From NCBI RefSeq assembly GCF_001186125.1, contig NW_014040178.1, positions 22,209-63,453 on the forward strand: DNA of 41,245 bases. Reading direction: 5' to 3'. The position numbers and the translations under genes are program-made. This stretch comes from Sphaeroforma arctica JP610. Its lineage: Eukaryota. This document shows, piece by piece, positions 9,147-41,245 of the stretch (positions are counted from its first letter, which is position 1; every line of letters starts with the position of its first letter). The notes under the pieces were generated by a model. It was not told the origin of the DNA and ran no database searches. It was given only the letters and a program-made list of their open reading frames with translations.

Positions 9147-9244
9147 TGTGTTTGAAATAGCGCAGTCATTTACTGAGCTGAGCGTTACTGATCGATTGGG
9201 TTATTGAGGTAGACTATATATACATATTTATTTATAAACAAATT

Positions 9245-13382: not shown

Positions 13383-15550
13383 ATGGGTGTTGATAGACTA
13401 AGACATGAGGTACTTGTAGGTGATGTGTCTCTGATCAAGCTGTGCCAAAAAGGCGAGCACATTTCGATTCTTAGACCTCAAACGGAAGAACGGAAGAAAA
13501 ACATTGTGTTACCGATGCGTCATTTCTAATTCGCATTGCATTAGCTCGTGCTTGTAAAAACTATAGGAATGCGGCAGAAATAGCTCGTAGAATTCACGCG
13601 CATAACGGTGGTGGTGTCAGCGATGCTTCGATAGATGTAACATTCAACATATTTACTTCCTATAGGGATTATATTATTTATTTCAAAAATGGCAAGTATG
13701 TATGATACAATGTACAAACATACGGTATGGCTCTCATAGTCGATGTAGTGGTTCAGGAAAGATTGATGGGAAGAAGTGGTCAGTAAATTCCCGTTTGAAG
13801 CTTGGGCCAAGTTAGTCGACAATGGAAGATATGTGCTGAGTCAATTCGGGCCGGTGTTAACAAAACACTGTTACAATCGAATGTTCCATATATTCGCTTG
13901 CTGACCTACTAAGTAGAGTACCCATCTCTGTGGTACGGAACGGATCTGCGCCGTGTAGTGCCGCGGAATGGTTTAGTGCAGAGTACGAAATACCGAGAAG
14001 GACCAGGTTATTCGTCATAATCCGGTCGAGAAGCGAGGATGGGGGTAAGCCAATGCCGCACCAGACCACGGATGAATTCGGTATGTGTTGGCTGGCCTGA
14101 ATCGGAAGTATCATAGGCGGAACCAACAAGCGCGATGATTTGGTTTGAACCGATATTTGGAAGTAGTACTTCAACAGCGTGATTAGCCAAGGTATAGGGA
14201 ACACCCGTTGATGTGTCAGGAACGGGTGAGGGTACGATGGTTCTTCAACATACTGGAGAAAAGATCCAAGGTGTTCGTGGAGGGTCCAGATACCGTGGAA
14301 GTCGTGGTACTCCTGTAATTGCTGAAGGAGGTCATGGCCAATGGGCGGCAGTTTCGGGCCTACCAGGATGCGTCGAATCAGTTATTGGATGCAGGTAAAG
14401 AGGCTGGTAGTGAACTCGTGGCTACCGGGGCAGACAGGACAGAGACAGTCGTCAGTGCGGTAGTCGAGCAATGTGAACATGTACGTATTCGTTACAATCA
14501 TAGCACAGAGCCAGATTGGTGCAGACTCGAAGCAGCGATTGAAGCTGTCGTGTCTGGCTGTGTCTCGGTTTGAGGTTGGCGGTTTACCCATAACCAGTTG
14601 GTAGTAGTATTGGCGCCGGGCCATTGCCGCGATCTTCTTGTTGGACCAACGTTTTGTTGAGTTCTTCCTAATGTCGTCACAGCGTTGGCGGAGGGCTACA
14701 TGGTCGGGTGAATAATGAACAACGATTTTCGATGAACAACGATTTTCGGATGCACACCTGTTTTTGTATTTGATGGACAGATTTCCCAATAGAAGAAGGC
14801 AGAACATGAGCGGCATTCGCAGGAAACAGAACATGGAATATAAATATAGTTGCGATTGGATCTTTCGTCACCGTGCGTTATCAACGATGGATTGCATCCT
14901 ATGAGACCGATAATCGAATTAAAACGTCACATGTAAAGTCCTTCATTTCAACACACGACTCGGATATGATCGTCTACGATAGCGGAGTAGATGTATGTTT
15001 CTATTTTGTTACAGAATGCGCTCACGGAAAACACACCACATTCATATACGGGTACATGTTCACCGTTTTAAAGTGTAAAGAGTATTCGGAGGTATTAAAA
15101 GTTGTGACTATATGAAGCGTTTTCGAAAGCAGGATTGTCTCATGTGTGGGCTTAAGAGGGAGAGGTGACTGCAGACATTATGCTAGCATATAGAGACGAA
15201 TCGGGCGACGGCATTTTGTTTACATTGAATTATTGTGCATTGGGTGACATTATGTATAACAAGTGTGAAAGTGCTTTCAAAGCAGGAATCAGCTCTTTCC
15301 GTAATGCCTGGCTATCCGACATTACACAAACTAAGTTTGCAACACTTCACGGAGATGACACAATATCAGACAGCAAAAAAATATTTCATAGGTGAGAAGA
15401 TACCCGATGGGAATATCATGAGCATTACACTGGCACATACAACCCTTTTAGTAGTCAGTGCAAACAACTGCCAGCGTATAGACTGCGACCAACTCCCGAG
15501 ACAAGCCTATCGAGCAACATATACTGCATCAATGCCTCGCCGTGAGTAGC
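13383..15550 (+). pseudogene. XPG/FEN1/EXO1-family (PIN-like) 5' nuclease pseudogene, split by a LINE fragment at 13663-14712
   Basis: Ordered motifs MGVDRL (13383), CVTDASFLI (~13505), FGCTPVFVFDG...KKAEHER (~14746-14815), WIASYETD (~14890), ISTHDSDMIVY (~14945), YCALGD (~15235); frameshifts and stops. Confidence 0.7.
13663..14712 (-). mobile_element. 5'-truncated LINE fragment (family A): RT C-terminus, zinc-knuckle-like motif, downstream ORF, 3' end
   Basis: Near-identical to 20790-21830; CPVCPGSHEFTTSLFTC. Confidence 0.85.
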
Positions 15551-15567
15551 ATCTATTCCCTATAGCT

Positions 15568-15940
15568 ACCCCCAACCACGCTCCTCAACCGAATTATGAC
15601 GGATAACCTGGTCCTACTTGGCATTTCTTACTCTGCACTAACCCATTCCACATCACTACACGATAAAGACCCGATCCGAACCACAGAGGTGGGTACGCAA
15701 TTTAGTAGGTCAGAAAGCGAATACGTGGCACACTCGATTGTGTCAGTTTTTTGTCAGCACCGGCCTGAATTGACCCAGTGCATATCCTCCATCGTCGACT
15801 CACTTGGTCCAAGCTTCAACAGGGAATTTACTGACCGCTTCTTCCCATCGATCTTCCCCGAACCACTACAACGGCTATGAGAGCCATACTATAAGTACAA
15901 ACATTGTAACTTAACTCCTTTGAGAAAAAAATATTATCCT
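15568..15940 (+). mobile_element. Short 3' fragment of LINE family A with candidate TSD TATAGCT
   Basis: MTDNLVLLGISYSAL...PSIFPEPLQRL matches the other copies; tatagct at 15561-15567 and 15941-15947. Confidence 0.85.
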
Positions 15941-17039: not shown

Positions 17040-19850
17040 TTGTTCTGGCTCTACACGAATCAAGTGGGTACACCAAACCCTATCTGGTGACAACTATAAT
17101 CGCTGGGATGCCAACTTGTATCTCGCGGCTCTTAGCGACTACGAGTGGGATCTCAATCACATTTTAAACAACTGTAAATTACTTAAACCTCCTTAAAATC
17201 CCTTACGAACCCGCGCGTATTGCTGAAAGCACCATTATATTCCGCAACGCTAAGAAAGCTGTGGGATATTATCGCACCACCAGAAGTCTTCTCATCCGTT
17301 CACTTTTCGATGAACTTTGTGAGACATTCAGCAAAGTAACGATGATGAAAGATACTTGGACCTTCTCAATAGCCTGAGTATTTATTATGACTCATTTACT
17401 TGGACCTATTTGAGACGATAGTAGATGTAGGATATTATAAACTAAATTTTATGTTCTCTGAACTACTACTTACAGGTTTTGGTCTTCCCGCCAATCTCCA
17501 AAATCCAATACGTCTTTTTCTTTTTTTTAACTTTTCTTCAGAAGGAACTTTATTTATATTAGCTAATGTATTAACTTGCTGCCGCTCGCCGTCTCGCCGT
17601 TACACTCGCCTTCAGACAAGTGGCACGGCACCACTGTCCTCCGTATCCCCAACGCACATTATGGCCTTCTGATTGGCCTGTTCAAATTGTCTGGTTCTAA
17701 AATTAAAAGCAAACATAAGTATAGCTTAGCTTTCCCGCAGGTTTCGGTGTTTTCCTTGGACGAGAACCCAACTGCCCACCCGACACCTGGAGAATACAAA
17801 ACTTTGCTACACAACGTTAATTGTGTTCACGCGACGTTCAGCTTCTGCCCGATGAGCTCCCGCGGTAGAATGCATCTGGAAACGGTGCACGCGTTCTAGT
17901 ACTCTCTCAGGTTAAGTTATTCCTTCCAATTGGTATGAACTCGACTCTCCAATCACGGCTGTTGTCCCTTATGTCCCTGCTGCTTCTCCACCTGTCGCCA
18001 TAGATATGACAACGGCTCCTATTCAGCCTGTACCCTCGCTGCCGCCGTCTGCTGCTTCCATGTCAGGTGCCGCACGCGCACCAAGTACCACTGTTATTCC
18101 TTCCTACATATGAGACACACCTAAATGGCCACAAGGAGCCTCCAACCCGTCACACCTAGGACTCCCCGTGAATATCCGCTGCAGCCTGCATTTATCCTGC
18201 CACCAGTAGTTCCTCATTTCAATACCCCACCCCCAAGAGTATAATTACGAACTTCCAAGGCTATCTCGAGGATTGCCGCCGTCAGCGACTTCAGCCTACC
18301 CTCGCTGGACAACGTTCCTTTCCCTCCATCTCATATTCCTGTCAATAACATTTCCACCACCGCTTTCGATGGTTCTTAGTTAAACTACTCGGACACCGAT
18401 AACCCATCAGATTTTTCCGGCTTAATAGCTGATATTCCTACGTCACCGTTCCTGATGACGGAAACAACTCGCCGCAGCAACTTTCGGATCCGTCCGACTC
18501 TTTATTTGACGACGGAGTTAACACTCCTGAGACGTTCGGCGACTACACCGATCAGACTATGACTTCCTAAACTCACCATATCTATTTGTTCGTGTCGCTA
18601 CCACGGATGACATCACTATCCTTACCGTGCAGTATCAAGCAATGCCCGGGCTGCCAGTCTCAAACTCGACGTCTTTCACTTTGTCGTCAATACTGCTTAC
18701 CTCTATTCTTAATTAAATGTCCCAGTCTTCATGCACCCGCCCGCTGGCAGCGTAAAACTCAAATATTACCCCGCAGGTCATGTACTAAAGCTCAAACGGG
18801 GCCTTTATGGCCTCCGTCAAGCTGAACGTCTATGAAATATAGACATCGTTGGTAAACTATCACATTTTTGCTTCCAGCGTACAGACGCCGACAAATCTCT
18901 CTGGTTCCACGATGGCTTCAGAATCTTACTTCTCATCTATGTTGATGAAATTGTACCTGCCGTAACTTGCATGTCTAGACTTGAGCTCTGGCTTTACCGT
19001 GCCCTCAGTCTTCACTACTCTCGCAAGAATCTGGGTTTGGTTCGCCACCTTGTAGGTTTCAGTATTCGTCAATCTCCTTCCTCTGTTACACTCGACCAGA
19101 CGGCTTATGTTGAACACATGCTTGCCACGTTTACTAAAATTGATACCATCCCGAACCATACCCCGGGTAATAGTATTCACCCTGCCTCCCTTGAAGCTCC
19201 AGCTTATCATGGCAAGAACTACCGTCGTCTCCTGGGTGCACTTGAGATTGCCGCTAATTGACCCGAGTTGATATTGCTGCGTGCCTGAATTAACTCGCTG
19301 CTTTTGCTTCAGATCCTAACGAGCTTCATTATAGGGCCCTTACCCGTATTCTTCAATACCTTTCTGTGACAAAACATTGTGCATTGGTTTACAACACGGC
19401 CGCTACCTCTGATGAACTCCTCGCCGTAACACAGATAGTGACTGGGACGGCTGCCACGACAATCGACGTTCCCAATCGGGCACAGTACTATGCTTCAATG
19501 GTACTCCTGTCTTCTGGAAATTCTAGAAACGGAAGACCACTGCTCTCAGCTCTGCCGAAGCCAAATACGATGCCTCCTCTGAATCGGCTCGCAGTATTGC
19601 ATGGTTGAATAACATACTCACAGCCATGCTGTGCGCCTTCTCCCCGCAACGCCTCACTATCCTCCAGGCTGACAATCAATCAGCCATCAAAATTTCTTTG
19701 GGTACTGGTACCCCCAAAGGACTCAAACACAACGCTATTCGTTACCATTACGTTCGTGATTATATTCAGCAAGGCATGCTTATTCTTACGTGCGTCAGTA
19801 CTAATGACAACGTTGTTGACCTTCTTACTAAGTTTCTAGGCCGCGAGATG
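17040..19850 (+). mobile_element. Decayed Ty1/Copia LTR retrotransposon (gag start, SH3-like region, RT, RNase H; integrase core missing)
   Basis: LSGDNYNRW (gag), GVFLG..SRDV (post-integrase SH3-like), LKRGLYGLRQA and LIYVDE (RT), DSDW..RRSQSG, ALSSAEAKY, DNQSAI, KHNAIRYHYVRD, NVVDLLTK (RNase H). Confidence 0.9.
17367..17578. repeat. ~210-bp dispersed repeat, second copy at 39150-39362
   Basis: Direct-orientation near-identical segments (tatgactcatttacttggacctatttgagacgatagtagatgtagg...gctaatgtattaacttg). Confidence 0.9.
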
Positions 19851-20774
19851 CGGTTTTTGTCTTGCATAGTTACTAACTTATTATGCTTCTCATAATTACC
19901 TTAGTTACTGAACAGGGCCATAATTCTGTAAATACATACACACTTTTACTTATATATAAAATTAGAAATGTGAATAAAAGAATAGTTGTTTAAAAAAAAG
20001 TATATGATATTAGACCTGTAATGTCAACCAAGTTTACCTCCGATTTAAAACAATGTTGGTGTTGTAAGCACCGAACTGTTCGGTGATGTTCCTGAGCGTT
20101 AATAAGAGTGCAAGAACTTCTAAGTGTGGGCGATAACTTATAAGTGTGAAAACTAATAAGTTTGAAAAGTTCTAAGTTGTATTGTGCGGTTTGTTGGCAA
20201 ACGGCCGCGCAGACTCGAAAGAAGAGGAGGTTGGTGTACGATTGGTGCTTTGAGAACCGAAGTGCGAGGTAATATGAGCTGGAGGTTGGCAGATGACAAT
20301 ATATGTTGAATGGACTTGTAGGCTCGAAATTGAAAAGATACACGATTTGATTGGCGGCAGGATTCTCAAGGAAATCTTTTGGAGATAGTATAAATACGTG
20401 GCTTTGTTCATTCAAAAAGTTCATTCTGCTAAGGTAGACGTTTATTCAACAACCGAGGAAATAAACCTAAGTTCACCGTTACATTGTGTTTTGAGTCTAT
20501 CTAAGATTACAGACTTTATTAGTCTATCTTTTTTCTTCCCTGTTGCGCCAGTTGAATCTAATAGATATTTTACAAGTACTGGATATTAACAAAATGGCAT
20601 AGAAATTGCTAAGAATAGGTAACTGCATTGCGTTGTAAACTATATAGTGTCTTCACAATTTTCCTTTTTGAAGCAACTGTCTCTTGATAACTTTAGAATT
20701 ATTGAGGTATATAGTAGTTTAGATAGTGCAGGTTTATTTAAGCGTGAACGCACGATTTCTAGCTAAATACTAAT

Positions 20775-23130
20775 TAGGATTAAGGATAGTATTATTTATT
20801 TCAAAAACGATAAGTTACAAAGTTTGTATGTTACAATGTATGATCATATGGTATGGCTCTCATAGCCGTTATAGTGGTTCGGGAAAGATCGATGGGAAGA
20901 AGTAGTCAGTAAATTCCCGTTTGAAGCTTGAGCCAAGTGAGTCGACGATGGAGGATATGCGCTGAATTAATTTGGGCCGGTGCTGATAAATCACTGATAC
21001 AACCGAATGTGCCATGTATTCGCTTGCTGACCTACTAAGTAGCGTACCCACCTCTGTGGTACGGATCGGTGTACGCCGGGTAGTGCCGTGGAATGGGTTA
21101 GTGCAGAGTACGAAATGCCGAGTACGACCAGGTTATCCGTCATAATTCGGTCGAGGAGCGAGGATGGGGGTAAGCCAATGCCGCACCAGACCACGGATGA
21201 ATTCGGTATGTGTTGGCTGGCCTGAATCGGAAGTATCATAGGCGGAACCAACAAGCGCGATGATTTGGTTTGAACCGATATTTGGAAGTAGTACTTCAAC
21301 AGCGTGATTAGCCAGGGTATAGGGAACACCCGTTGATGTGTCAGGAACGGGTGAGGGTACGATGGTTCTTCAACATTCTGGAGAAAAGATCCAAGGTGTT
21401 CGTGGAGGGTCCAGATACCGTGGAAGTCGTGGTACTCCTGTAATTGCTGAAGGAGGTCAGGGCCAATGGGCGGCAGTTTCGGGCCTACCAGGATGCGTCG
21501 AATCAGTTATTGGATGCAGGTAAAGAGGCTGGTAGTGAACTCGTGGGCAGATAGGGCAGAGACAGCCGTCGGTGCGGTAGTCGAGCAATGTGAACATGAA
21601 CGTATTCGTTACAATCATAGCACAGAGCCGGATTGGTGTAGACTCGAAGCATCGATTGAAGCTGTCGTGTCTGGCTGTGTCTCGGTTTGAGGTTGGCGGT
21701 TTACCCATAACCAGTTGGTAGTAGTATTGGCGCCGGGCCATTGCCGCGATCTTCTTGTTGGACCAACGTTTTATTGAGTTCTTCCTGATGTCGTCACAGC
21801 GTTGGCGGAGGGCTACATGGTCGGGTGTACACCCGCCCGTGGTTTTGTGTACAGTTTTTAGGTGAGCATAGATACTGTACGGGAAGCGCAGTGATGGTTT
21901 ATCGTGGGCCCAGGCGGGTTGCGTCAGAGGGGTAAGTGGATTTGTGCTTGCCATTGAGTCGAGTTGTATTCCCAGGCAACCTCCGAGGTAGTCCGCGAAT
22001 GGTCGCGCGGGGAGCAGGCCGCAAAAGTGAAGTAAGTTTGTTTGATGTTTGGGAGACCGAGGGTATTTAGTGCCCGTGATGATGGCTGCTGCTTGGATGA
22101 GTGCTGAGTTAAAGCGCTCGAATAGGGGGTCCAACGCATTCTTCCATATAGGCGGAGCCCAGGCAATAAGGTTCAGCCCATATGTAGCCGTGGATAGGAG
22201 GAATGTTTTGAACATCACCAGTCGGTTGCGGGGGTGTCGCCAGCTGTAGCCATGGAAGCCATAAGCGCGGAAAGAGGCGATACCCAGTGACAATGCTGCA
22301 ACCAGGGATTCCATATGTTTAACGAGGTTGATTCCTGGTACTCCGTGAGAGAGTGGGAACCCCAGGTATTTGGAGTGTTTCGGTTCGGCATGTGTGGGCG
22401 CCAGTTTCAGGAGGAGGTAACGTGTGTTCCAAGGTGCGTCTGCAAACGTCGGCGTGATAAGCTCACCATTTATACAAAGGGTTGGCGCCGCGTGTCGCAG
22501 GTCGGTAGATCGTACTCGGGGTTTAATGACACCCTGTTCGAAGCCAGATTTGCGTCCCCGCGCATCAATGTCATCTAAGAAGGGCTGGAGCAAAATCGAT
22601 CGAGGGGCTTGGATCCGTGTGTCATCGACAAATAAATAAGAGCGGAGGAGCTTGGGCCGAAATTGTGCTAGCGTGACAGCTATGGAATACATGTAGATAA
22701 TAAAGAGCTGGGGGCCGACGATTGAGCCTTGTAAGATGCCATTCGTTCTATGGAATAGAGACAAGAGCGTGCCGCGGTATGTCACTCGGGTAGGGACCCT
22801 CCCAAAGCGTGGGAGAGTGACCTTGTCGTATGCCTTGGTTATGTCCAGACGGACGTCGTTCCACTCCTCTTTTGACTGTGTCTCAGATTCCATGGCGGCA
22901 AGTGCTTGGGTATGACAGGAGTACCGTGATTTGAAGCCAGCTTGGGTAGCATGGGTAGCAGAGCCGGGGTGGCTCGTAATCAGATTAAGAAAGCACTTTT
23001 CAAAGATGCGTCTGACTATTTGCGTAAGCGTGATGGGGCGGAAGTCGGTGGGGGAGGTGATATCTGCATCGGCTTTTTTGGGGTGCGCTGTCAGGAGGCT
23101 GCAGTTAATGGCTGCGAGGAAGGTACCCCG
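20775..23130 (-). mobile_element. Non-LTR retrotransposon (LINE family A), 5'-truncated; RT ORF 21457-22893
   Basis: DFRPITL, QAGF, LDITKAYDKV, GILQGSIVGPQLF, YLFVDD, KYLG motifs of non-LTR RT; small deletion in the zinc knuckle; shared 3' end. Confidence 0.92.
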
Positions 23131-23259
23131 AGGAACTTAAGTTTCCTAAATGTACTCTTAATAGTATGAGGAACTTAAGTTTCCTAAATGTACTCTTAAT
23201 AGTACGCGGAACTTAAGTTTCCTAAATGTACTCTTAATATCACGAGGAACTTAAGTTTC
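23129..23259. repeat. 38-bp tandem repeat, ~3.4 copies, near-palindromic core
   Basis: gaggaacttaagtttcctaaatgtactcttaatagta(t/c) starting at 23130, 23168, 23206, 23244. Confidence 0.95.
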
Positions 23260-23569
23260 ATAAAATGGGTTTTAATGGTTTTATTAATTAATACCTTTTC
23301 TCTTTTACATATCAGATATTTGGACGTGACCATTAAAAAGCCCCAGTAAAATACCAAACATAAGAGTTGGTCTAGTTCTATTAATAGAACTATATTTACT
23401 TTTCAACTTTATTCATATCCGAATACCTCAGTAGCGAGATGGCTCAGCCGAATATAGGTTTCTAGGGACTATTCACGTAGCCTAGTTGATCCTCCGATCA
23501 GCCAACCAGATGTACCAGTCTGATGAAGGCTAAGTCGGTTCACAGTCCATTTCATCCAGTATTCAGAAT

Positions 23570-26500
23570 AAATCATGAGTTCTAACACCACAACGGACAC
23601 GGCACACACAGATCAGTCAATGACTTCTGCTCCGTAGCAAAGAACAAAAGCAGCACAAAGGAGTATACGCACAGAAGTGAGCTCTACTAGCACATACACA
23701 CGAGGAAGCACCAGCTGTACAGCTTGAACTCGACCAGAACAATCGCATACAATGCCAGTGTCACAAGCTTCCTCACGCACTTTTACTCCAAACAATGGGG
23801 AAGGAGCGATGTACATGGATGATGAGCCCACACCAGCAAGAGCACCATTAGATCCAGCAATGAGTAAGTTCAAAGTGGTCATTGACACGACCATTTATGA
23901 TGGCAATGCCTATAGTATATGCATACTGGTATATAAGCTGTATGCACAGAAGTTGACATACAAGCACTCCATAAGCTCCGTAATGCAGTTCACACCCAAC
24001 AACCTAATAGATTGATACCAGAAGTCGATCAGCGGTTATCAAAACTATACAATAAAGCTGTGAAAGGCTGTGATAAAAGTGATCACGATGAGTGTATTGC
24101 AATCAATGGCTTAATGAGCGAGTTAACACTAATTAGATCCCATGTAGGGGATAAAATCTCAGAAACAAAGATGAACAAACTACTCAAGATGAGTGAGTTC
24201 TCTAAGTGGCCAACACACAAGTATGTGAGTATGGCTGATTGTCGTGATACACTTGAGTTTGTATCTGTAGTAAAAGACTTGTTTGCGAACACAAACATGC
24301 CATTGGTACAGTATCTATCACTCGTACAAGAACTGCCCCGACAAACAGCCACAACAGAGGTACCGCGCACAGCACTCAATAATACACGTAGTTCCCAACA
24401 GCTTTGGAAAGACTGCACTGATGGGGAAGTCTACAATATATTAATCATTGACAATTTGCGTCACACTCCAGTAAACTATCTGCTGGAGAAATGGCTCAAC
24501 GACTTCTATAATGCTCGACGAGCAGCACGATTGCGTCGCACAATGCTTGAGCTGGAGAAACGATGCAAGGGCACGGGGAGATAGTCCATTAACATGCAAT
24601 TTCTCAAAGTGTCACGTTATCAGTCACTAGTCATGTATGGACAACAGGCCGAGACTGATAGAATATTGAAGGCGCAAACGAAGCCTGATGGTAGTAGCGG
24701 ACCCTTGTCTGACATATCAGAGAAGATATTCCATGAACTCACTGAAGACTTTGTATCAGACAAGCAACCATAACACATGCTAATCACGATCGGTATCGCA
24801 AACGAGCGAGAACCGCACCCATCCCAGACCAGAGAGTCAATCGTCCAAGACTTGACACACCCCCAGGGGGTCCACCCAGAGAGATGGGTCAACCCAGAGG
24901 GGGGGGGGGCGGGGACCACAAGTAGGACAAGGCCGAGGTCGTCCTATGGGACAGGGTACTTACACCCCAACACCGCGAGGACCACGACCTTGTCCATACT
25001 GCCGTTCAGACCCTTCGTCACATGCGTTTAACAAGTGCCCAAAGAAGAAAGAAAGCAAACGTCAGAAGCAGCAGCTAGGGCAGCGCAGCAATCCCAACCG
25101 ATACATGTAGACCAGTTGACCATTACAAATGGCAACAAGGTGCAAGCGATGGATGAAGAATCTATAAAGCTTGGTGGGCGGAAGTTAATATGGTAAACAT
25201 GGTAGGCATTGTGAATGCACACACTGATGAAAAAACGTTGCTAAGAAATGCAAATGACATTGCTTACCCACCTTATTCTTTACTTTCTAATCCACGAGAC
25301 CAAAGATTGCACATAGACATACAAATGAATGGCACCACATACAACGCACTAGTAGATTCAGGAGCACAACGCTCATGTATGGATCGCAGTTTAGTAACTG
25401 AACTATACTTGTCTGTAAAATCACAACCTGGGTCTACATACAGATCGCACAATCAGATGTACGAGTACAACGCACAGGTTCCACAGACGTGTGTGATATT
25501 ACCTATGGCGGTAGATAAACATCAAACTGCTTTGGGGTACTCGACTTCCCAGACAAGAAATCACCAATCCTTTAGGTATGGATATTTTACCATACTTGGG
25601 CATATATCTAGCTGGGATAATTGATCCACTCAAACCGACATATGCTAAATGGGAATCACTTCTCACACCACATGAAGATGACCCTGAAAATGAGCGAGAA
25701 GGATTCAGAGAATCACTCTCAGACTTATTAGACCAGAACGGCCAGATCCCGCCGGATGTACACTGCAATTTGCCAGGATCGGTAGTGGAGATACCAAGTC
25801 AAGAGGTCAAAGCAAAGAACATTCGTCACGCTAAAGTGAACTTTGTTCCACATAAATACATGCCACAAACAGATGACAATGTTCAAAAATGGGTCAAAGA
25901 CGGGCACATATACAAGCGAATAGCACCCACACAGGCGAATCTACCATTACGGTGTGTACACAAAAATAGCCAACACTTTTAACTTTTTCTTGGAGAGGGG
26001 CACAATACTCATTCAAGTCAACTCCGTTTGGACTCCACTCGCTAACAGCACAATTTCAACGAGTGATGGCCAACCACCTCATCGACATTAAAGGGGTACA
26101 AGTATACGTGGACGACAGTAGAGAAACACAGACAAACAGTACGAGAAGTCATCAAAAGACTTAACGCAGCCAACTTCAGGCTAAATCACAACAAATGTGC
26201 GTTTGCAGTCAAGAAGTCGATATATTAGGCGTCAAAGTTACAACAAAAGGGCTCAAAACAGACCCCGAGAAACAAAACACATGATTGACAGGCTACTGCC
26301 AATAACCAAACGTGACCACATAGAGCAATCTGATTAGTAAACTACATGCAGGACTATATTCCCTAGTTCGCGCATATAACGAAACACTTCCGCAATCTCA
26401 TGAAAGGAAAAATGAATCAGAATATAGCGATTCTTCGGACACCAGAACTCATTAAGAAATAGGAATAACTCAAAGATGTTATTGCATGCTCCGCAATATT

Positions 26501-26600
26501 GGCGTATTCAGTAGATGGAGTACCGTTTCAAATCATGAACGACACAATCGCTGTCCCAAATCATAGATGGAGTCAGAAGGGATATACTCTATTTTTCAAA
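23570..26600 (+). mobile_element. Decayed Ty3/Gypsy retrotransposon (gag, protease, RT, start of RNase H), truncated at the Copia
   Basis: ALVDSGAQRSCMD protease (~25345), PFGL..FQRVM, YVDD (~26104), PFQI RNase H start. Confidence 0.88.
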
Positions 26601-28139
26601 GGGCTTAAAAGGTAACGGTTTGAAATGCGGTACTAGGAGGGGTTGTTGTGTGCTCTCCTGGAAGCTGTGTCGTAGTGTGTCCCGTATTGTGTGGTGATGG
26701 AGCTGAAGATGTCGTGTCCATGGTGGTATTTGTTGAACACTCCCCTGGAATAGAGGTATCGTCAGCAGGTTGATCCTCGATACCGTGTTTGTTTGCAGTG
26801 ATATAGGTTTGCATCTGGCGGGCGCATTGTCTCGTCATTCGCATTTTGTTAGGTAGATGCGGTCCATTGAGCGTGTACAAGTAAGAGACCGCGAAGGGCG
26901 CGTGATTCGGGATGTCGGGCAATGTGGGTTTGTAAAGTGTTGTTAATAGTGTCCTCCTTGTCTGGTGTCGCGGTCGATGGTGCTTGTGCAGTCGATGCAG
27001 TGTCGGGAGTAGGTAGGAGCGTGCGTGGCGTAGCGTATGTGGTTGGTGTGGGCAGGAGGGCGGTTTGAGCAGGTAGAGGATCCTGGTGTGTATCAGCTGA
27101 GATGGTGACATCGTCGGTCTGTGTGCCAACCGAGGAATAGGTAGGTGTTTGTGTCTCGCATGTAGTGTCTTGATCGAGGTGTAACGCCATAGTCAGCTCA
27201 CGGATTATGGGTACGTCCTTTGTGTCTGTGGCAAAGTGTGGGACGGGTGTGTTCCCAACCATAGTCCAAGTCGGAAAGACACGGTAATTGAATTGAACGT
27301 CGCTGGAGTGACATATTTTACCTGTCTTGAGGTTAAGTATTCGGCACTCATCGTGGCCTATATATACCCCAATATTGGCGCGGTCGTCTAGTTTGCCATG
27401 GCGTGACTGATTGATAAATGCTACTCGACATTCAAAGAGGCGCATGTTCTTAATGCGGTCAGTTGGTTTAAACCCCCAGAACACTTCCCAAGAGGATTTT
27501 TGGTCTCAGTTGTGTTTGTTGTCGTGGACAGAGTTCTTGAGAGCTGCGTATTGGATATCTTCGGCCCACATGTTGTCGGGCATCTTGGCTTGCTTCATAT
27601 CGCTGAGTATAATGTCATGTATGACACCATTTGCACGCTCGACTAAGCTATGTAATGCGGGCGTTGCAGTGGGCACGTAGAGTGTTTTTACATGTTCCTG
27701 CGTGTTAACCTTGTTGAATTCTTGAGAGATGAATTCCCCGCCACGGTCACATTTGAGCTCGCGTAGCTGTGCAAGTTTATCCTTCCCGATTTCAGTGTAG
27801 AATTGATCTAGTGCGCCAGTCGCGTCGTCCTTGTGCTGGAGGTTATAGACTAATGTGTAGCCACTGATGGCATCTACGGACTTGATATCACAGGTATAAC
27901 CACTAGGGGTTGTGGGCAAGCCCGTATGTAAGTCAACATGGAAAACGGTTCCAATAGGAGGAAGGTATCGACTCTTTGCTGGTATGTCGGACTGGTCTGC
28001 GGCGCATTTTCCCTTGTACACATGGTGTACAAGAGGTACGGTCTGTCAGGTAAGCGATGGTATCTGCCTCAGCTGTGAGCAGTTCTGCGGTGGGAAAAGC
28101 GGCATGTTTGATGTTGCCAAGTCGTGCTATGCAGATGTA

Positions 28140-28545
28140 GTGCCACTTAGGTAGGCCAACGACATTGCGCCCGTGTTCTAGGAAAGTCTCGAGTATTGTA
28201 CGTATGACCTCCGCATGAGAGTGTAACTGGCGTAGTGTTTGGTTGTAGTTCTTGGTGTTGGGTTGTAGTGGAAACACCGTCGTGACCAGGCCATTTTCAG
28301 TATCGAGCTTGGCTAGAGTCTCACGCCAAGTTTTGCGGCGAAAAGGTATGTTCCCGTAAAGGTGTTTATCGGGTTGATCCCAGGATTGCATAAATGCGTC
28401 TTGGAGTGGTGCGTCATCGGTGAGTCCACAGTACAGGGGTACTTGCGCGTTTTCTGCGTTGGCGAATAAATCGATATCTACTGGTCCAAAGACGTCTGTA
28501 ACATGTCGTTGAAAGAGATCCGGGAGTAGCATCCATTCGTTATGG
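28140..28545 (-). CDS. Dam/DIRS-type N6-adenine DNA methyltransferase-like domain inside the Copia integrase N-terminus
   Basis: NEWMLLPDLF..FGPVDIDLFANAENAQ..YC..DAFMQSW..LYGNIPF..LVTTVFP..TFLEHG..LPKW; uninterrupted frame from WHRRLGH to CTPC. Confidence 0.8.
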
Positions 28546-28638
28546 GAAGGTTTGGTGATTGTAGTAGAGGATATGTTATTAGATCGTAGTGTCTCGGTAA
28601 TTTTGTCGCTATGGCCGAGTCGTCTATGCCAATCCTCA

Positions 28639-28947
28639 GTGGACAGAGTTCTTGAGAGCTGCGTATTGGATAGCTTCGGCCCACTTGTTGTCGGGCATAT
28701 TGGCTTGCTTCATATCGCTGAGCATGATGTCATGTATGACACCATTTGCACGCTCGACTAAGCCAAGTAATGCAGGCGTTGCAGTGGGCACGCAGAGTAT
28801 TTTTACATGTTCCTGCGTGTTCACCTTGTTGAATTCTTGAGAATGAATTCCCTGTCACGGTCACATGTGAGTTCGCGTAGCTGTGCAAGTTTATCCTTCC
28901 CGATTTCAGTGTAGAATTGATCTAGTGCGTCAGTCGCGTCGTCCTTG
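28639..28947 (-). repeat. Duplicate of Copia integrase core segment 27524-27833
   Basis: ~310-bp near-identical direct repeat. Confidence 0.9.
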
Positions 28948-33789: not shown

Positions 33790-36700
33790 CCTGAAAATGT
33801 CAGAGTGTGAAGAGAGAGAATGCAATCATTGCATTTCATTCTCCCCTGGATTGGTTCTCGACTGTGTCACCATGCTCTGAGGGTACTCCAGTATGCATGG
33901 ACTTAGTGTGGCGCGAGTGTGTAGGGCGAGCGGTATACGGCTGTGCTGACGTAGTCTGCTTTGATGACACCTTCTTGTTCGGGTTCCTTAATCTGATGTA
34001 CCCGTATATTGTAGTTTAGAGCCCTAGGCGCCCTTGCACGATGCATACGCACAGTCTTGAAACCAACCCCATAAACACCTATATGGAAACATCCCGTTCA
34101 CGAAGAACGATTGACGCAAGACACTTTTAGGGTTTTAGGGTTTTCTATATTATGCGCACTAGAACCGTCAATCGGCGTTCCATTTGCGCCTTGTGTGTTT
34201 ATATGGTATGCATTTCTTATATGGCACATGCCCGATACGAGTACTAACGGTTCCATTGCGACATAGCAGAACTTGCTACCGTTATCAGAACATAATACAC
34301 CCATGGTCAGCGAAGACTTGGCAACATAATCCAGCCACATTCTACGTCATCGTGTCCTCTAGAAGATAAAACAAGTCAACCGTGACGTCATATTAAAAAA
34401 AAGTGGCATACGCAACGGCCGCCTGTGTGCTCAGACATAGGCAGGTCAACCATATCAATGTTGACCGTGCGCCATGGGACATCTTTGGCCACTTTCTTAA
34501 GCGGTGCGAGCTCATAACGTATGATCTGTTTAAGCTCACAGTCTATACATGACTGATATACTTTGGCAATCAAAGTTGTCAGCCTGGGATGCGCTATATC
34601 ATTTCGCTTAGCGTTTTCAAGAGCGTCTACTACATTTTGATGCTTCAGCTTACGATTTTACGTCAGCCAAGCGAGAATGTTATAATCATTCTGCTCTCCA
34701 GTATAAAGGTAGGGTGTTGAAAATCCATTTCCGTGTTCTCTACGTCTGTAGCGTTTTCAATCTTGTAGTGTTTTCAGACTCCTTTCCTCCTTTTGTTTGT
34801 GCGGCTTTAGTGCGCTCGTATACATTAGCCACACTCGACTAATTTAATAGTCGCATAATGAGTGTGTATACTCCAGGATTATCTTTCATTAATTCCTTTA
34901 GAAAAAGTCACTGAAAGACTTCGGGCTTCGACTTTTATGTTCTTAAATACAGTACAAGCTAGAGATTGACGCTTCTTGCCTGCAGTGCCAGTAGTAGATT
35001 GTATTCCTTGTGCACAGACTTCACGTGCTGTATTGCCCTTGCACTGATTTATATTCTATTTGTTGGAGGGTGAAATCTCCGACTCTGCGATCTTTTTAAG
35101 AAAGGTCTCAGATGGTGTCCTTGAGGTTGTTCCTTTTGGATGTCTCCAGTGCGTCTTTTGGATTGCTCGGGTACCCTGATCGAGGAAGGAATCTACTTTC
35201 CTATCTAGATATATTGGCTCGCATTGTACCTTGCTTATTAATTTATTGAGCCACGGAACTAATTTCCGTAAGGAGTAACGCAACATTATGGTGGCTTTGT
35301 GTGTATATATGAGCGTATTTTAATAACTGGGCAATTAACTGCCATGGTGGATTGGCCCACGCATTATGTTTAGAGATATCTATTTGAAAAGCTTCTCCTA
35401 AGGATGATTAAATGTTCTATATTATGGTGTGCAACAAACATATCGATTTAATGTGGCCAAACTATATTTTCAGCCAGCTCGAACCATCGTGGATTACACT
35501 TCTAATCGGTGGCGATGAGCTCTCGTACTTATTAAACCTGGAAAATATATCTGGAAAATTGTTATGCATTTCGGGTAAATGTTCTATATCAAAGTGGAAC
35601 TTAGAAGTTATGTCATCCCATATATTAAGTAACTGAGGGTCTGGCTTCATCTCTTTCATATAACGAAGAGACTTTGGTTACGCATCAGCGTAGAAGCTGT
35701 TCCATAGAGAAAATCTTTAAAGTGTGTCCTAGCTGTAACAATAACTAGTAATTATTGTTTAACAGTTGAGTAATTCAACTGTGATGAAATTCATAACTCG
35801 ACTAAAGAGTTGTATTCAACTCGGTTTGTTATCGATAACCTGATGTAGTACTCCTCCAAGTGCTAAGTCGGAGGCGTCGGTTGCTATTTCGAATGGCACA
35901 TCATCCACTGGCCCTTGTACTCAAAATGCCTCATCACACTCCTTAGTCCACAGTTCTCCTAACATATTTTTTTGTGACATCTTAATAGTCCGAAAGATTT
36001 TAAGTAATCTGCTAGGTGTGGTACTCTATCTGAAAAGGAGTTTACAAGCCCACACATACTATTGATATCTTCCCCAGTAGTTGTTGTTTGCCAACCTAGG
36101 ATATGTTCTACCTTTCTGAGGTCAATTTTTATACCTTCTCCGGATACGATATCCTGAAAGTTGTATTTCACTCATAACGAAAAGATATTTCATCTCGTTA
36201 ATCATGAAATTTTGTACGTTGAGTCTTTGAAGGACTTTCCTTACTATTGCAGCGTGATCTTGCTTAGTCTTTAGAAAAATGACTGTGTCATCGATATAGA
36301 CTTGAACGTTAGGCTGTCTGCAAACATTTCTTCCACTACTTGTTGGAAGAACGCAGGTAAAGAGTGTAACACAAAAGGTGCTCTTTTGAAACGTTATAGG
36401 TTCCTCTTCCATAATAAAATAAAGTATTTACGATGTGGCTCATATATCTTCATTTGATGTTATCTTTCTGTCAGGTCTATAGTTGTAAACACTGTAGCGC
36501 CTTTCATTATCTTTGATAACTCGGTTTGTATGCGGTAAGTGAAGGCTAGGAATAGGCAAAAATTTATTCATTGTGCTCATATCTAAACACACTCTGCCCT
36601 TCTTATTCTTAAATGAACCGTCAGAGTTATGTTAGTCAGCATCTAGTAACACCAAGCTAACTGGCGTTTGTTGATAGTTCATTCTATCTCTCTATCTGCT

Positions 36701-38450
36701 ACCCACTTGTCTACCTTTTCTTTTACTACAGTCTCATGTCTCCAAGATACACAGTTTCTTGATACACATTTCAGCTTGGTAAAGTCTACATTGGTTAAGT
36801 CAAGGCTGACATATACGTCATCAAAGTGAAACTTAGCCCAGTCACCAATATTAATCTCTTTATTTACAAGAATAAAGTCCATAATCTTGCTTTCAAAGTC
36901 TGGGATTAATTCCTTGACTGTATTGGACGGTGATACATATGATTTCATACAGTTATCGTTGATTTGTTCTTTAAATGATATACGTTGTTAAGTAAACCAG
37001 TAACGGTATGTGTACTTTTGTGACATCTTCAGTATCACAACCTGGGTTGTGATATTGCAACCATCGGCCACATACTTGGACGTCTTCTCATCTGCTACTA
37101 AAATAAGGTGAGTAGTTCGTGTTCTTCGTTCGATATCTTTTAAAGCAAATCGATCGGATATACATTTTTTTTAAATTGAGATCAGTCAATACAAGGACTT
37201 TATTTCCGATGCATTATACAGGGAGATTTACACACACGTTCATTTAACAGTTCGTTGTATTGTCGCTGTAGGGATTGCACCCGGTAGTACCTTCACTCCA
37301 ACTTGATGTTGGTTTTCTTGTCACAAGACTTAGCATGATAGTCATTAGTCTTGTCGCACATGTTAACAAAGTGCTTACAAGTTGGCATATGTCGCCCGTT
37401 CCAGTACCGTTCGAGGTCAATTGATACATATCGTATCCACACTTCATATGCACCACTCATCTCTTAGTATGCTTGTATGGTGTTTCCTTTTTAGCAGGCG
37501 TTTTCTTATCACGTTGAGGTTTCCGGACAGTATCCAACGGGCGTGCTGATGGAATCGAGTTGCTCTCGTGGTTTCCTGACTGACCACCTTTTCTTTTAAG
37601 GTGACACGGTCCAAAGGATAGAAAATAGTCTTATCATAAAACTGATCCCAACGGAGACAAGTCAAGTGGAACTTCTGTATTCTCTTGGCCATTGTCCTGT
37701 GTTTCTTTAGTATACTTGCGACGAAGATCGATGTACAGCTTTTTGCGATCATTGCTGCCAATGGTTATGCAGAACATATGCATGGCTAGCAACGCATACC
37801 ATCGCGACTTGCCATTAGTGGTTATGTCAGGTCCGACTAAGTCCGCATCGAGCTTCAATATAAAGCTCAATACGGCAGTGCTCGGTGGTGGTGGTGCCAG
37901 GATCGAACGTATAGTAAATTAGGTGAATAACTGAACCTACCAACCTAGTACTATTTCCCAACCTAGTACTATTTCACCTAATTTATTACAAACGTAGTCT
38001 TGGGCTTTGCATATCTTTGTTCAGCAAGAATATCAACAACAATCGTAGTAGTCGACTTTTTCTTGGTCATGGATATCATGAGCGATTTTCATTGTGACCG
38101 TGACTTCAACGGCAAATCCGTTAAGTACATCTACATCCGCAGATTGGAATACATTCTTCGCGGGTTAATACAACACAGTACGATCAACACGAGCAAACTC
38201 TAAGTCGTCTGCTTGTTTACGGAAAGCTTTAGTTATGTTCGTCACACAATTATATAGTGCGATCAAGGCTTGTCCCTTACTGGCTATTGTTAAGTCAGCT
38301 GAATTTAGTTTAAACAACGTCGCTTTCTCCCACTTGGGTACTTCTGGCAAAGTACCCTTGCCTGCCGCGGAGTCTATATTATCCTCGAGTATGGAATACT
38401 CATCTCCAGAAGAGAATACAACTGGTGTCAATCTCTCCTAATCTTTAGGT
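33790..38450 (-). mobile_element. Decayed Ty3/Gypsy retrotransposon (gag, RT, RNase H, N6-MTase-like domain, integrase)
   Basis: VYIDD RT (~36290), PFEIATDASDLALGGVL and HLPEMHNNFPDIFSR RNase H, CIDC..PWRTVNIDMVDLP and SDNGSKF integrase; 5' limit uncertain. Confidence 0.88.
35130..35490 (-). pseudogene. Frameshifted N6-adenine DNA methyltransferase-like domain in Gypsy Pol
   Basis: Reconstructed across frameshifts: SSW..FG/PH*IDMFVAHHN (IDMF 35436-35447)..GEAFQIDISKHNAWANPPWQLIAQLL (NPPW 35342-35353)..KATIML..PWLNKL..SFLDQG..HW. Confidence 0.8.
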
Positions 38451-39909: not shown

Positions 39910-41188
39910 CCTCGTGCGTTAGACATGAATTACTGGTTGTAGCATTGTCCCAGGGTATCGCCCCTTTCCGCGCTTATGACTTCCATGGCTTCAGCTGGCG
40001 ACACCCCCTCAACCGACTGGTGCTGTTCACCCGACCATGTAGCCCGTCGCCAACGCTGTGACAACATTAAGACAAACTCAACAAAACGCTGGTCCAACAA
40101 GGAAATCGAGGTAATGTCCCGGCGCTAGTAGTACTACCGACTGGTCATTGGTAAACCACCAGCCTCAAATCGGGACAAAGCCAGACACGACAGCTTCAAA
40201 CGTTACTTCGAGCCTACACTAATCCGGCTCTGTGCTATGATTGTAACGAATACGTACATGTTCATATTGTTCGACTATCGCACCGACGGCTGTCTCTACC
40301 ATGTCTGCCTTGGTGGCCACAGATTCACCACCAGCCACTTTAGCTGTATTCAATAATTGATTTGATGCATCCTGGTAGGCTCAAAACTGCCGTCCATTGA
40401 CCCTGACATCCACCAGCAATTGCAGGAGCGCCACGACTTCTACGGTATCTGGACCTTCCACGAACACCTTCCTCAACACGATGGCTAGCAATACGCCGCC
40501 TCAGCTTTCTACGACGGACTCTTCAACGACAGGCAATGATATAAAAATGGCTGACATCGTCAAAGAGGAGAGCCCAGTAGTATTGACCGATGATGAACAA
40601 TGTTAGGACCAATGAGGATGACGCTCTTCAACCCACAAGGACTCAATATGGACAACGCAGCACATACAGATAAGTGTTTGAACGTTATATCGATTTTAAG
40701 TCAGGTTGATGTTATGTGTGTGGTTGAAACCTGGCATAACACCACATTTCTTAATTATATACACTCGAACACACGCTATCATATACAACATCACACTACA
40801 CGGCATAATATCTTACACCCTTCACACTGTGGTATTGGTATCTTTTCCAAACACCACCCATCGAATTTTCAACTTGTACACTCTTCACCGTACGCGGTGT
40901 TCTTTGTGTGCTTTGGCGTTCATATGGCCGTGTTCTACTTCCACTCAAATCGCTTACTGAAGAAGACGTCAGGCGATACATTAATCCCCCCGAGATTGGT
41001 GGTTTCCAACCAGATGTCGTGTGGGGAGATTTCAACTTCAAAGCTCGGAAGTATGGCCATGTATCTACAAATCACGGACTCCCATCAATCTTTCCTGAAC
41101 CACTACAGCGACTATGAGAGCCATACCATATGTTCATACATTGTATCATACATACTTGCCATTTTTGAAATAAACAATATTATCCCTA
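39910..41188 (+). mobile_element. Rearranged LINE family A copy containing an ORF1-like tail and an APE endonuclease
   Basis: 39910-40470 matches the RT C-terminal region; 40600-41070 has LFNPQGL, VVETWH, GIGIF, VWGDFN (APE family); 41080-41188 is the family 3' end. Confidence 0.85.
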
Positions 41189-41245
41189 ATGCCTTAGAAT
41201 AAATAAATGCGAACGTAAATTCTAAATATAGTGTAAAATCGATAT

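What the first reader, a model, noticed from the sequence alone, without database searches (positions are those of the whole stretch)
28010..28640. N6-adenine methyltransferase-like domain inserted inside the HHCC zinc finger of a Copia integrase
Seen: one uninterrupted - strand frame reads TEDWHRRLGH (28611-28631, upstream of the ORF-track Met), NEWMLLPDLF, FGPVDIDLFANAENAQ, DAFMQSW, YGNIPF (NIPF 28341-28352), LPKW, then SCTPCVQGKMRRRP. The second His and first Cys are 194 codons apart. Established: WHxRLGH and CxxCxxGK are the two halves of the Copia integrase HHCC (gag-pre-integrase) motif and are usually only a few tens of residues apart. W-x-L, DLFA, DAF-x-x-x-W and NPPF/Y are hallmarks of the Dam-like N6-MTase domain known from DIRS retrotransposons. 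Inference: this Copia family splices an MTase fold into the integrase N-terminal domain, so it would travel with the intasome and could methylate, or simply bind, cDNA or target DNA. NIPF departs from NPPF, so catalysis is uncertain. I do not know of this architecture in Copia but cannot verify novelty.
Basis: partly seen in the sequence, partly recalled or inferred. Interest (0 to 1): 0.92.

Follow-up and report, generated by a model that had tools for sequence, protein, structure and literature searches.

The report
Methyltransferase splits a Copia integrase finger
A broken copy of a Copia-type jumping gene carries an adenine-methyltransferase-like domain inside the zinc finger of its integrase, a layout shared by distant relatives and apparently not described for Copia before, which would let the element mark its own new DNA copies as it inserts them.

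Summary
Confirmed, and not a one-off. One open minus-strand frame (27933-28709) reads His-x4-His, a ~146-residue Dam/PCIF1-like N6-adenine methyltransferase domain, then Cys-x2-Cys-GK. A D,D(35)E integrase core and a Copia-type SH3 domain follow across breaks. The insert folds confidently; its best structural match is the cap methyltransferase PCIF1 (Z 11.4). A public Sphaeroforma arctica protein only 30% identical keeps the whole layout with almost the same His-to-Cys distance (194 vs 193 residues), and six more keep parts of it. NIPF is shared by relatives and resembles the NIPY of active Erm enzymes, so it does not exclude catalysis. This copy is dead: frameshift, stop codon, duplicated core, no protease or RT. 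A May 2026 preprint describes Dam-carrying LTR elements, all Ty3/gypsy; 'copia' does not occur in its main text. The scan had noted gypsy cases in other genomes and no Copia case. Untested: reassembly of the zinc finger, linkage to a Copia RT, and any activity. All full or partial relatives found come from one species. Verdict: new variant of a known kind.

The parts
28545..28638 (-). N-terminal half of the integrase HHCC finger (WHRRLGH; His codons at 28626-28628 and 28611-28613) plus the following helix/loop
   Evidence: Pfam gag_pre-integrs E=0.0022 in the ORF, 0.045 alone, both under the cut-off. Relative P0006 matches profile positions 21-65 of 67, E=0.064. His-x4-His in P0001, P0003, P0006, P0008; Ser replaces the first His in P0030.
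28107..28544 (-). Dam/PCIF1-like N6-adenine methyltransferase domain (aa 33-178): DLFA 28472-28461, DAF 28400-28392, NIPF 28352-28341, PKW
   Evidence: Pfam Dam E=0.0047 alone. AF2 pLDDT 87-98 per 10-residue block over aa 41-200. PCIF1 6irx Z 11.4, rmsd 2.8 over 138; T4 Dam Z 8.4, rmsd 2.8 over 110.
28035..28088 (-). Predicted helix (aa 185-202) linking the MTase domain to the CxxC
   Evidence: DSSP on the AF2 model, pLDDT about 90. Same-length segment in P0008, P0004 and P0002.
28008..28031 (-). C-terminal half of the finger, C-x2-C-x2-GK
   Evidence: Sequence. The same motif follows the Dam domain in P0008 and P0004. No Pfam hit for this 40-aa piece alone.
27509..27964 (-). Integrase catalytic core with intact D,D(35)E, out of frame with the finger; ends at a stop codon at 27506-27508
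   Evidence: Pfam rve E=8e-5, below cut-off. D2-E spacer 35. 71% identical to P0003 over 112 aa.
27272..27457 (-). Copia-type SH3-like integrase C-terminal domain, followed by a Thr/Pro-rich tail to about 26600 where other repeats interrupt the element
   Evidence: PF25597 40.9 bits vs cut-off 27. A decayed gypsy element on the + strand reaches 26543.
28639..28947 (-). Duplicate of the integrase core fused directly upstream of the HH; a lesion of this copy that replaces the protease
   Evidence: 94.5% identity to 27524-27833; junction. A zero-difference contig covers 28736-28902 in run X10. Relatives have a protease tail here instead.
33992..34126 (+). Second, decayed 45-codon fragment of the same Copia-type Dam domain, also NIPF but with different codons
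   Evidence: tblastn 58% identity, E=4.5e-12. Frameshift-aware score 129 vs shuffled maximum 41, n=12. 74% identical to P0003 over 34 aa. pS 0.83, pN 0.28 over 42 codons.

Best explanation
This is a decayed member of a Copia-type retrotransposon family whose integrase carries a Dam-like N6-adenine methyltransferase domain between the His and Cys halves of its zinc finger, and the domain likely rides with the integrase onto new cDNA and would deposit 6mA there. Shown: the layout, its conservation down to 30% identity, the MTase fold, the retained motif I (DLFA) and motif IV Asn, and that this copy is broken. Inferred: (a) the domain entered as an in-frame insertion at the ancestral CxxC, probably from a co-resident gypsy DAM-LTR or a DIRS element; (b) its two ends lie close enough for HH and CC to rejoin around zinc; (c) it cannot be cleaved out without splitting the finger, so it stays in mature integrase, in the particle and in the intasome; (d) it methylates cDNA or the RNA:DNA intermediate so that the new insertion enters the host's 6mA-marked, transcription-permissive chromatin. 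Step (d) is the model that the 2026 preprint proposes for gypsy DAM-LTRs. I put the family-wide layout at about 0.9 and the whole mechanism, catalysis included, at about 0.45.
For: Whole layout in P0008: query 2-223, 30% identity, E=2e-10; His2-to-CxxC spacer 194 vs 193 here, against a canonical 23-32 (PMC5384227). Partial layouts in P0002-P0006 and P0030, 40-59% identical to P0001 over their matched parts. All seven are named Sphaeroforma arctica hypothetical proteins. Divergent contigs bridge Dam to CxxC (X20 record 30, 27973-28246, 18 differences) and post-HH helix to NIPF (X16 record 22, 28294-28599, 31 differences). Fold matches are N6-adenine MTases. The motif IV Asn is kept in 5 of 5 Copia-type proteins that reach it (NIPF x2, NI then frameshift, NQP then end, NPIW) and in the window's second fragment. 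Erm's base-binding pocket is described as NIPY (PMC9386465; that paper also writes NPPY once). Codon-position mismatches 16/7/33 between the two window copies. Insert and core share base composition. S. arctica has AMT1-type 6mA, and its DAM-LTRs are more often methylated and expressed (preprint).
Against: No activity data. The preprint's eukaryotic Dams gave no 6mA gain in dam-deficient E. coli, and Iyer et al. judged DIRS1 MTase domains likely inactive (PMC4738411). No Copia-type row has the NPP triplet, which 32 of 67 scored rows have. AF2 left HH (aa 2-29) and the CxxC region (aa 201-235, block pLDDT 45-55) unresolved, so rejoining is not shown. No full-length relative with a Copia RT was found. 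All relatives come from one species and are fragmentary gene models; P0003 and P0004 have out-of-frame stretches. One low-depth contig (X16 record 22, depth 3.4) stops matching at 28599, and its 30 loose letters do not read as the HH motif. The pS/pN figure comes from an HSP selected for protein similarity.
Confidence: 0.45

Rival explanations
1. Same conserved layout, but the domain is a non-catalytic binder. It would read adenine or 6mA, or dock on RNA polymerase II chromatin, and steer the intasome to active, 6mA-rich regions, as a chromodomain does for chromoviruses.
For: The NPP triplet is altered in every Copia-type row. Negative E. coli assay for related Dams. Iyer et al. propose inactive binding or mimicry for DIRS1 MTases. 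A position inside integrase suits targeting.
Against: Motif I and the motif IV Asn plus aromatic residue are kept across subfamilies 26-54% identical. Active Erm enzymes use NIPY.
Confidence: 0.25
2. The domain is active on RNA (the element's genomic RNA, its cap-adjacent A, or the primer tRNA) inside the particle, and its place in integrase only reflects where the polyprotein tolerated an insertion.
For: The best structural match is the RNA cap MTase PCIF1 (Z 11.4), well above DNA Dams (8.4), and KsgA/Erm RNA MTases follow. Iyer et al. place DIRS1 MTases in the PCIF1 clade.
Against: A shared fold does not show the substrate. Only the catalytic core aligns (model residues 31-177). The preprint's phylogeny derives these domains from prokaryotic DNA Dams.
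Confidence: 0.15
3. The insert destroyed the zinc finger or is a tolerated passenger; the family spread anyway, using a rearranged metal site or integrase supplied in trans.
For: Rejoining was not modelled. A Cys or His sits 22-26 residues after the second His, directly before the Dam start, in 5 of 5 Copia-type rows vs 3 of 35 other Dam rows, so a local HH+C/H site may exist apart from the downstream CxxC.
Against: Both halves and their distance are conserved at 30% identity. The Dam fragment shows excess third-position change.
Confidence: 0.09
4. The host element is not a Copia retrotransposon (for example a Ginger-like DNA transposon or a chimera), or the layout is a one-off recombination product in dead copies.
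For: No Copia RT, LTR or primer-binding site is linked here. This copy has a recombination junction right at the HH. gag_pre-integrs and rve scores are below curated cut-offs.
Against: A protease-like segment directly precedes HH in P0003, P0006 and P0008 (read from motifs, no Pfam protease hit; Atlas feature neighbours of P0008 carry Pol_BBD and gag_pre-integrs at scores 0.76-0.77, a lead only). PF25597 passes its cut-off. The layout recurs in three subfamilies.
Confidence: 0.06

Closest known systems
DAM-LTR retrotransposons (Fernandez-Moreno et al., bioRxiv 10.64898/2026.05.21.726589), especially the ichthyosporean lineage in Sphaeroforma arctica, Abeoforma whisleri and Pirum gemmata
   Same: Same PF05869-type Dam domain in an LTR-element polyprotein, in the same host group as the closest relatives of this protein. 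Nearest tree neighbours are gypsy-linked Dams. A decayed gypsy RT-RNaseH-Dam-integrase element lies at 34176-37071 of this window.
   Different: All LTR lineages described there are Ty3/gypsy-like and were classified by RVT_1; 'copia' and 'Ty1' occur 0 times in the main text. In the gypsy proteins seen here Dam sits between or after intact domains. Here it is in a Copia-type integrase and splits the HHCC finger. Motif IV is NIPF/NPIW, not NPP(F/W/Y).
DIRS1-type retrotransposon Dam-like methyltransferase (PCIF1 clade of Iyer et al. 2016, PMC4738411)
   Same: Same domain family and motifs (W-x-L, DLFA, DAF-x3-W, motif IV); many phmmer hits have the RT-RNaseH-Dam order.
   Different: DIRS use a tyrosine recombinase and place the MTase after RNase H; here a DDE integrase contains it.
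Ty1/Copia integrase with HHCC finger (Pfam gag_pre-integrs PF13976, rve PF00665, SH3_retrovirus PF25597)
   Same: HH and CxxC halves, D,D(35)E core, SH3-like C-terminal domain, protease-like segment upstream in relatives.
   Different: Canonical H-x3-7-H-x23-32-C-x2-C (PMC5384227) becomes H-x4-H-x193-C-x2-C. A screen of 4,811 Copia consensuses from 121 plant genomes reported no domain gain in Copia (PMC9289625).
PCIF1/CAPAM cap-specific N6-adenosine methyltransferase
   Same: Best solved-structure match: Z 11.4, rmsd 2.8 A over 138 residues; Foldseek E=1.2e-4.
   Different: 12-14% identity; only the core aligns; cellular enzyme acting on mRNA caps.

Membership tests
Ty1/Copia LTR retrotransposon | Integrase with D,D(35)E core | tested here: met
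   rve E=8e-5, below the curated cut-off; D2-E spacer 35
Ty1/Copia LTR retrotransposon | Copia-type SH3-like domain after the core | tested here: met
   PF25597 40.9 bits vs cut-off 27; that this domain marks Copia integrases is recalled
Ty1/Copia LTR retrotransposon | Protease directly upstream of integrase (order PR-IN-RT-RH) | tested here: inconclusive
   Absent in this copy (replaced by the duplicate). Protease-like segment before HH in P0003, P0006, P0008 by motif reading; no Pfam Pol_BBD hit; Atlas lead 0.76-0.77
Ty1/Copia LTR retrotransposon | RVT_2 reverse transcriptase and RNase H downstream of integrase | tested here: inconclusive
   Element is cut at about 26600 by other repeats; no full-length relative; no genome held
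Ty1/Copia LTR retrotransposon | LTRs, primer-binding site, target-site duplication | not testable with these tools
   Both ends of this copy are lost; no flanking LTR pair among the repeats; host genome not available
Ty1/Copia LTR retrotransposon | HHCC finger with canonical 23-32 spacing | tested here: not met
   Spacer 193 here and 194 in P0008; this is the feature of interest, all four ligands are present
Eukaryotic retroelement Dam-like N6-MTase (PF05869) | Profile similarity to Dam and to DIRS/gypsy Dam domains | tested here: met
   Own hit E=0.0037-0.0047, below cut-off; phmmer neighbours such as P0007, P0011, P0012 and P0029 pass the Dam cut-off
Eukaryotic retroelement Dam-like N6-MTase (PF05869) | Rossmann N6-MTase fold | tested here: met
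   AF2 mean pLDDT 80.5 with 40 sequences; PCIF1 Z 11.4, T4 and E. coli Dam Z 8.4
Eukaryotic retroelement Dam-like N6-MTase (PF05869) | Asn-Pro-Pro catalytic triplet with following aromatic | tested here: not met
   NIPF; Asn and aromatic kept, first Pro replaced; 3 of 67 scored rows have NIPF; NIPY lines the pocket of Erm
Eukaryotic retroelement Dam-like N6-MTase (PF05869) | Adenine methylation activity | not testable with these tools
   Needs biochemistry; related domains were negative in E. coli
DAM-LTR lineages of Fernandez-Moreno et al. 2026 | Ty3/gypsy-like RVT_1 and organisation | tested here: not met
   Integrase is Copia-type, with no RNase H upstream in relatives
DAM-LTR lineages of Fernandez-Moreno et al. 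2026 | Dam domain branching with gypsy-linked Dams | tested here: inconclusive
   P0001/P0002/P0006 clade 97/91, sister to gypsy P0007 83/84; the split of Copia+gypsy rows from the other 22 has 69/71; AU p=0.14 for a gypsy-only clade
DIRS retrotransposon | Tyrosine recombinase instead of DDE integrase | tested here: not met
   A DDE core follows the domain

The most novel reading that the evidence does not exclude
An old Copia lineage has built an active N6-adenine methyltransferase into the zinc finger of its integrase. The intasome itself writes 6mA on the inserted DNA and seeds host AMT1 maintenance, coupling integration to an activating epigenetic mark in a single protein.
Probability: 0.3. 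Interest if true: 0.88.

Novelty: new variant of a known kind. Interest (0 to 1): 0.66.

Why it matters
It extends Dam capture to the second great LTR superfamily, as an independent event that an RVT_1-based screen would not classify, in a group reported to resist domain gain. It shows that the HHCC finger, involved in integrase multimerisation (PMC8487063), can tolerate a ~165-residue insertion over long evolutionary time, a natural site for attaching domains to an integrase. Its position ties the methyltransferase to mature integrase. That makes an open question testable: whether retroelement Dams act on cDNA at integration or on RNA in the particle, in a cultured organism whose 6mA map already exists.

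Tried and rejected
Word-index protein searches with P0001 found nothing. The profile search of longer proteins (691-2000 aa) found 2 of 6033 candidates, both RVT_1 elements and neither Copia. Viral contigs: 0 relatives. Metagenome contigs: 1 locus of 49 pattern matches, L001, whose ORFs are unrelated, judged chance. PDB by sequence: one irrelevant hit, only RT/RNase H-type hits from flanks with A5, none with A2. Single-sequence AF2 failed (pLDDT 34). Atlas feature hits for P0001 were under 0.9, leads only. I first read two short matches at 34315 and 34433 as extending the second fragment through the CxxC. Rejected: the stretch scored no better than shuffles and lies inside an unrelated gypsy integrase on the other strand. 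No contig joint skipping the insert was listed, but contigs cannot show absence, and summed depth was not used as copy number. No RNA holder listed. Donor of the domain unresolved: AU tests rejected neither one Copia clade (p=0.30) nor a gypsy-only clade (p=0.14). The careful tree used 33 of the 76 proteins with a Dam-profile hit, chosen by me, with P0077 left out as a long branch; its bootstrap had not quite settled. The complex predictor was not available, and a second, finer contig lay was not obtained, so finger rejoining and the per-copy state of NIPF in the sequencing runs stay open. No host genome was held. Literature searches listed no paper on a Dam domain in Copia; the library lacks most subscription papers and Repbase reports, and the preprint's supplements could not be seen.

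Full report
Observation. The second His is residue 10 and the first Cys residue 204 of P0001 (window 28640-27936), 194 codons apart. The canonical integrase finger is H-x3-7-H-x23-32-C-x2-C (PMC5384227, passages). Pfam gives gag_pre-integrs (E=0.0022) on the His pair and Dam (E=0.0037) on the insert, both under the curated cut-offs. It gives rve on the next frame and SH3_retrovirus above its cut-off after that. The core keeps D,D(35)E.

State of this copy. It is dead. The core is out of frame with the finger from about 27964, and a stop codon lies at 27506-27508. A 310-bp duplicate of the core, 94.5% identical, is fused directly to the His pair where the protease should be. Downstream the element ends near 26600 against other repeats, so no RT is linked. 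The junction at 28638/28639 raised the possibility of a one-off chimera, which became the main thing to test.

The layout is a family trait. phmmer against 1.84 billion representatives gave 76 hits at E<=1e-3. P0008 matches residues 2-223 at 30% identity and reads protease-like tail, His-x4-His, Dam, CxxC-GK. Its His-to-CxxC spacer is 194, against 193 here. P0003 and P0006 carry protease-like tail, HH and the first half of Dam; P0030 is a near-copy of P0006 with the first His lost. P0004 carries the second half of Dam, CxxC and the core; P0005 the second half and the core; P0002 Dam alone. Pairwise identities point to about three subfamilies. All seven are named as Sphaeroforma arctica hypothetical proteins, so the window most likely comes from Sphaeroforma or a close ichthyosporean; this is inference. 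They are fragmentary gene models, and two have out-of-frame stretches. Contigs from 4 of the 24 listed runs include divergent copies that bridge Dam to CxxC (X20 record 30) and the post-HH helix to NIPF (X16 record 22). Against this, the X16 contig (depth 3.4) stops matching just after the HH, and its loose end does not read as the HH motif. The window holds a second, decayed 45-codon fragment at 33992-34126, 58% identical, with NIPF in different codons and mismatches of 16/7/33 by codon position. My attempt to extend that fragment through the CxxC failed its controls and was dropped.

The insert is a Dam/PCIF1-type domain. With a 40-sequence alignment, AlphaFold2 gave mean pLDDT 80.5, confident over about residues 31-200. 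Foldseek ranks PCIF1 first (E=1.2e-4), then KsgA, Dot1 and RlmJ. VIA-align over 48,161 chains gives PCIF1 Z 11.4 (rmsd 2.8, 138 aligned), with T4 and E. coli Dam at 8.4 among KsgA/Erm entries. The HH and CxxC segments were not resolved, so whether the finger rejoins is untested; the complex predictor was unavailable. One hint on the insertion point: a Cys or His lies 22-26 residues after the second His, immediately before the first Dam motif, in 5 of 5 Copia-type rows (three subfamilies), against 3 of 35 other Dam rows. In P0006 the gag_pre-integrs profile runs through that Cys (positions 21-65 of 67, E=0.064). This suggests that the domain landed at the ancestral CxxC, leaving a possible fifth ligand.

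Catalysis. Among 67 rows with a full motif IV (of 80 aligned; P0079 dropped as a near-copy), 31 have NPP(F/W/Y), 23 have FPP-x and 3 have NIPF: this protein, P0002 and a gypsy chromovirus, P0007. Every Copia-type row that reaches the motif keeps the Asn, but none has NPP. The pocket of the active rRNA N6-methyltransferase Erm is described as NIPY (PMC9386465, two passages; it writes NPPY once), and the motif IV aromatic stacks on the target base (PMC11789486, passages). NIPF therefore does not exclude activity. Against activity: Iyer et al. judged DIRS1 domains likely inactive (PMC4738411, passages), and related Dams gave no 6mA gain in dam-deficient E. coli.

Origin. In a careful tree of 33 Dam domains, P0001, P0002 and P0006 form a clade (97/91) next to gypsy P0007 (83/84), while P0008 is a long branch. 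AU tests reject neither a single Copia clade (p=0.30) nor a gypsy-only clade (p=0.14). A gypsy donor is plausible, since a decayed gypsy RT-RNaseH-Dam-integrase element lies 5 kb away, but it is not shown.

Mechanism. Because the domain lies between the zinc ligands, it would stay in mature integrase and reach the cDNA and the target site. My preferred reading (0.45) is that it writes 6mA on the new copy so that the insertion enters the host's 6mA-marked active chromatin, as proposed for gypsy DAM-LTRs. S. arctica has such a methylome, and its DAM-LTRs are more often methylated and expressed. The rivals are a non-catalytic reader or tether (0.25), an RNA-directed enzyme (0.15), a passenger with a rearranged finger (0.09), and a non-Copia or one-off origin (0.06).

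Novelty. Earlier notes of this scan pointed to a May 2026 preprint. I read its abstract, all results, discussion and methods, and passages of the introduction; its figures and supplements could not be seen and might hold some of these S. arctica proteins among its 46% 'orphan' Dams. It describes five DAM-LTR lineages, all Ty3/gypsy-like or mixed with DIRS, classified by RVT_1, and never mentions Copia or Ty1 in the main text. De Mendoza 2018 (PMC5890265, passages) notes that Symbiodinium Copia lack a DNMT domain. A screen of 4,811 plant Copia consensuses reported no domain gain in Copia (PMC9289625, passages). Eight searches listed no report of Dam in Copia, within the limits of the library. 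The scan's own index had six gypsy cases and no Copia case. The finding is a real, apparently undescribed variant of a newly described kind: a new host superfamily and a position inside the finger. It is known so far from one species, its RT linkage is unproven and its function untested. Interest 0.66.

Noticed in passing
window 34176-37071 (-): Decayed Ty3/gypsy element with protease, RT, RNase H, a Dam domain (NPPW near 35350) and integrase; 34-64% identical to P0082 in pieces, best E=2e-74. It fits the ichthyosporean DAM-LTR kind of the 2026 preprint and lies 5 kb from the Copia-type copy.
   Followed up: partly
window 28544-28542 (aa 33 of P0001) and the matching residue in P0003, P0006, P0008, P0030: A Cys or His at the canonical first-Cys distance from the second His, directly before the Dam start, in 5 of 5 Copia-type rows vs 3 of 35 other Dam rows: a remnant of the ancestral CxxC or a fifth metal ligand.
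   Followed up: partly
window 23937-26543 (+): Another decayed gypsy element (gag-like ORF, aspartyl protease, RT pieces) that cuts off the 3' end of the Copia-type copy.
   Followed up: no
window about 17700-19895 (+): A different decayed Copia fragment (SH3-like piece, RT and RNase H pieces by motif reading); no Dam or HH/CC match seen upstream.
   Followed up: partly
window 13694-15920, 20818-23136, 39927-41202: Several copies of a LINE-like element (RVT_1 in 21457-23136, E=1e-15; endonuclease-like ORF at 40597-41202 by motif reading), 82-97% alike, in both orientations.
   Followed up: no
window 23091-23279: Four tandem copies of a 38-bp unit at the 5' end of the LINE-like ORF, possibly a monomer-type promoter array.
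   Followed up: no
P0007, P0015, P0058, P0047, P0082: Gypsy-type proteins place Dam in at least three positions: between RNase H and integrase, before the protease, and after integrase. P0007 shares the NIPF motif and is the nearest non-Copia neighbour in the tree.
   Followed up: partly
window 8181-9200 (-): 339-aa uninterrupted host-like ORF that looks like a tandem-PDZ (syntenin-like) protein by eye; not scanned.
   Followed up: no
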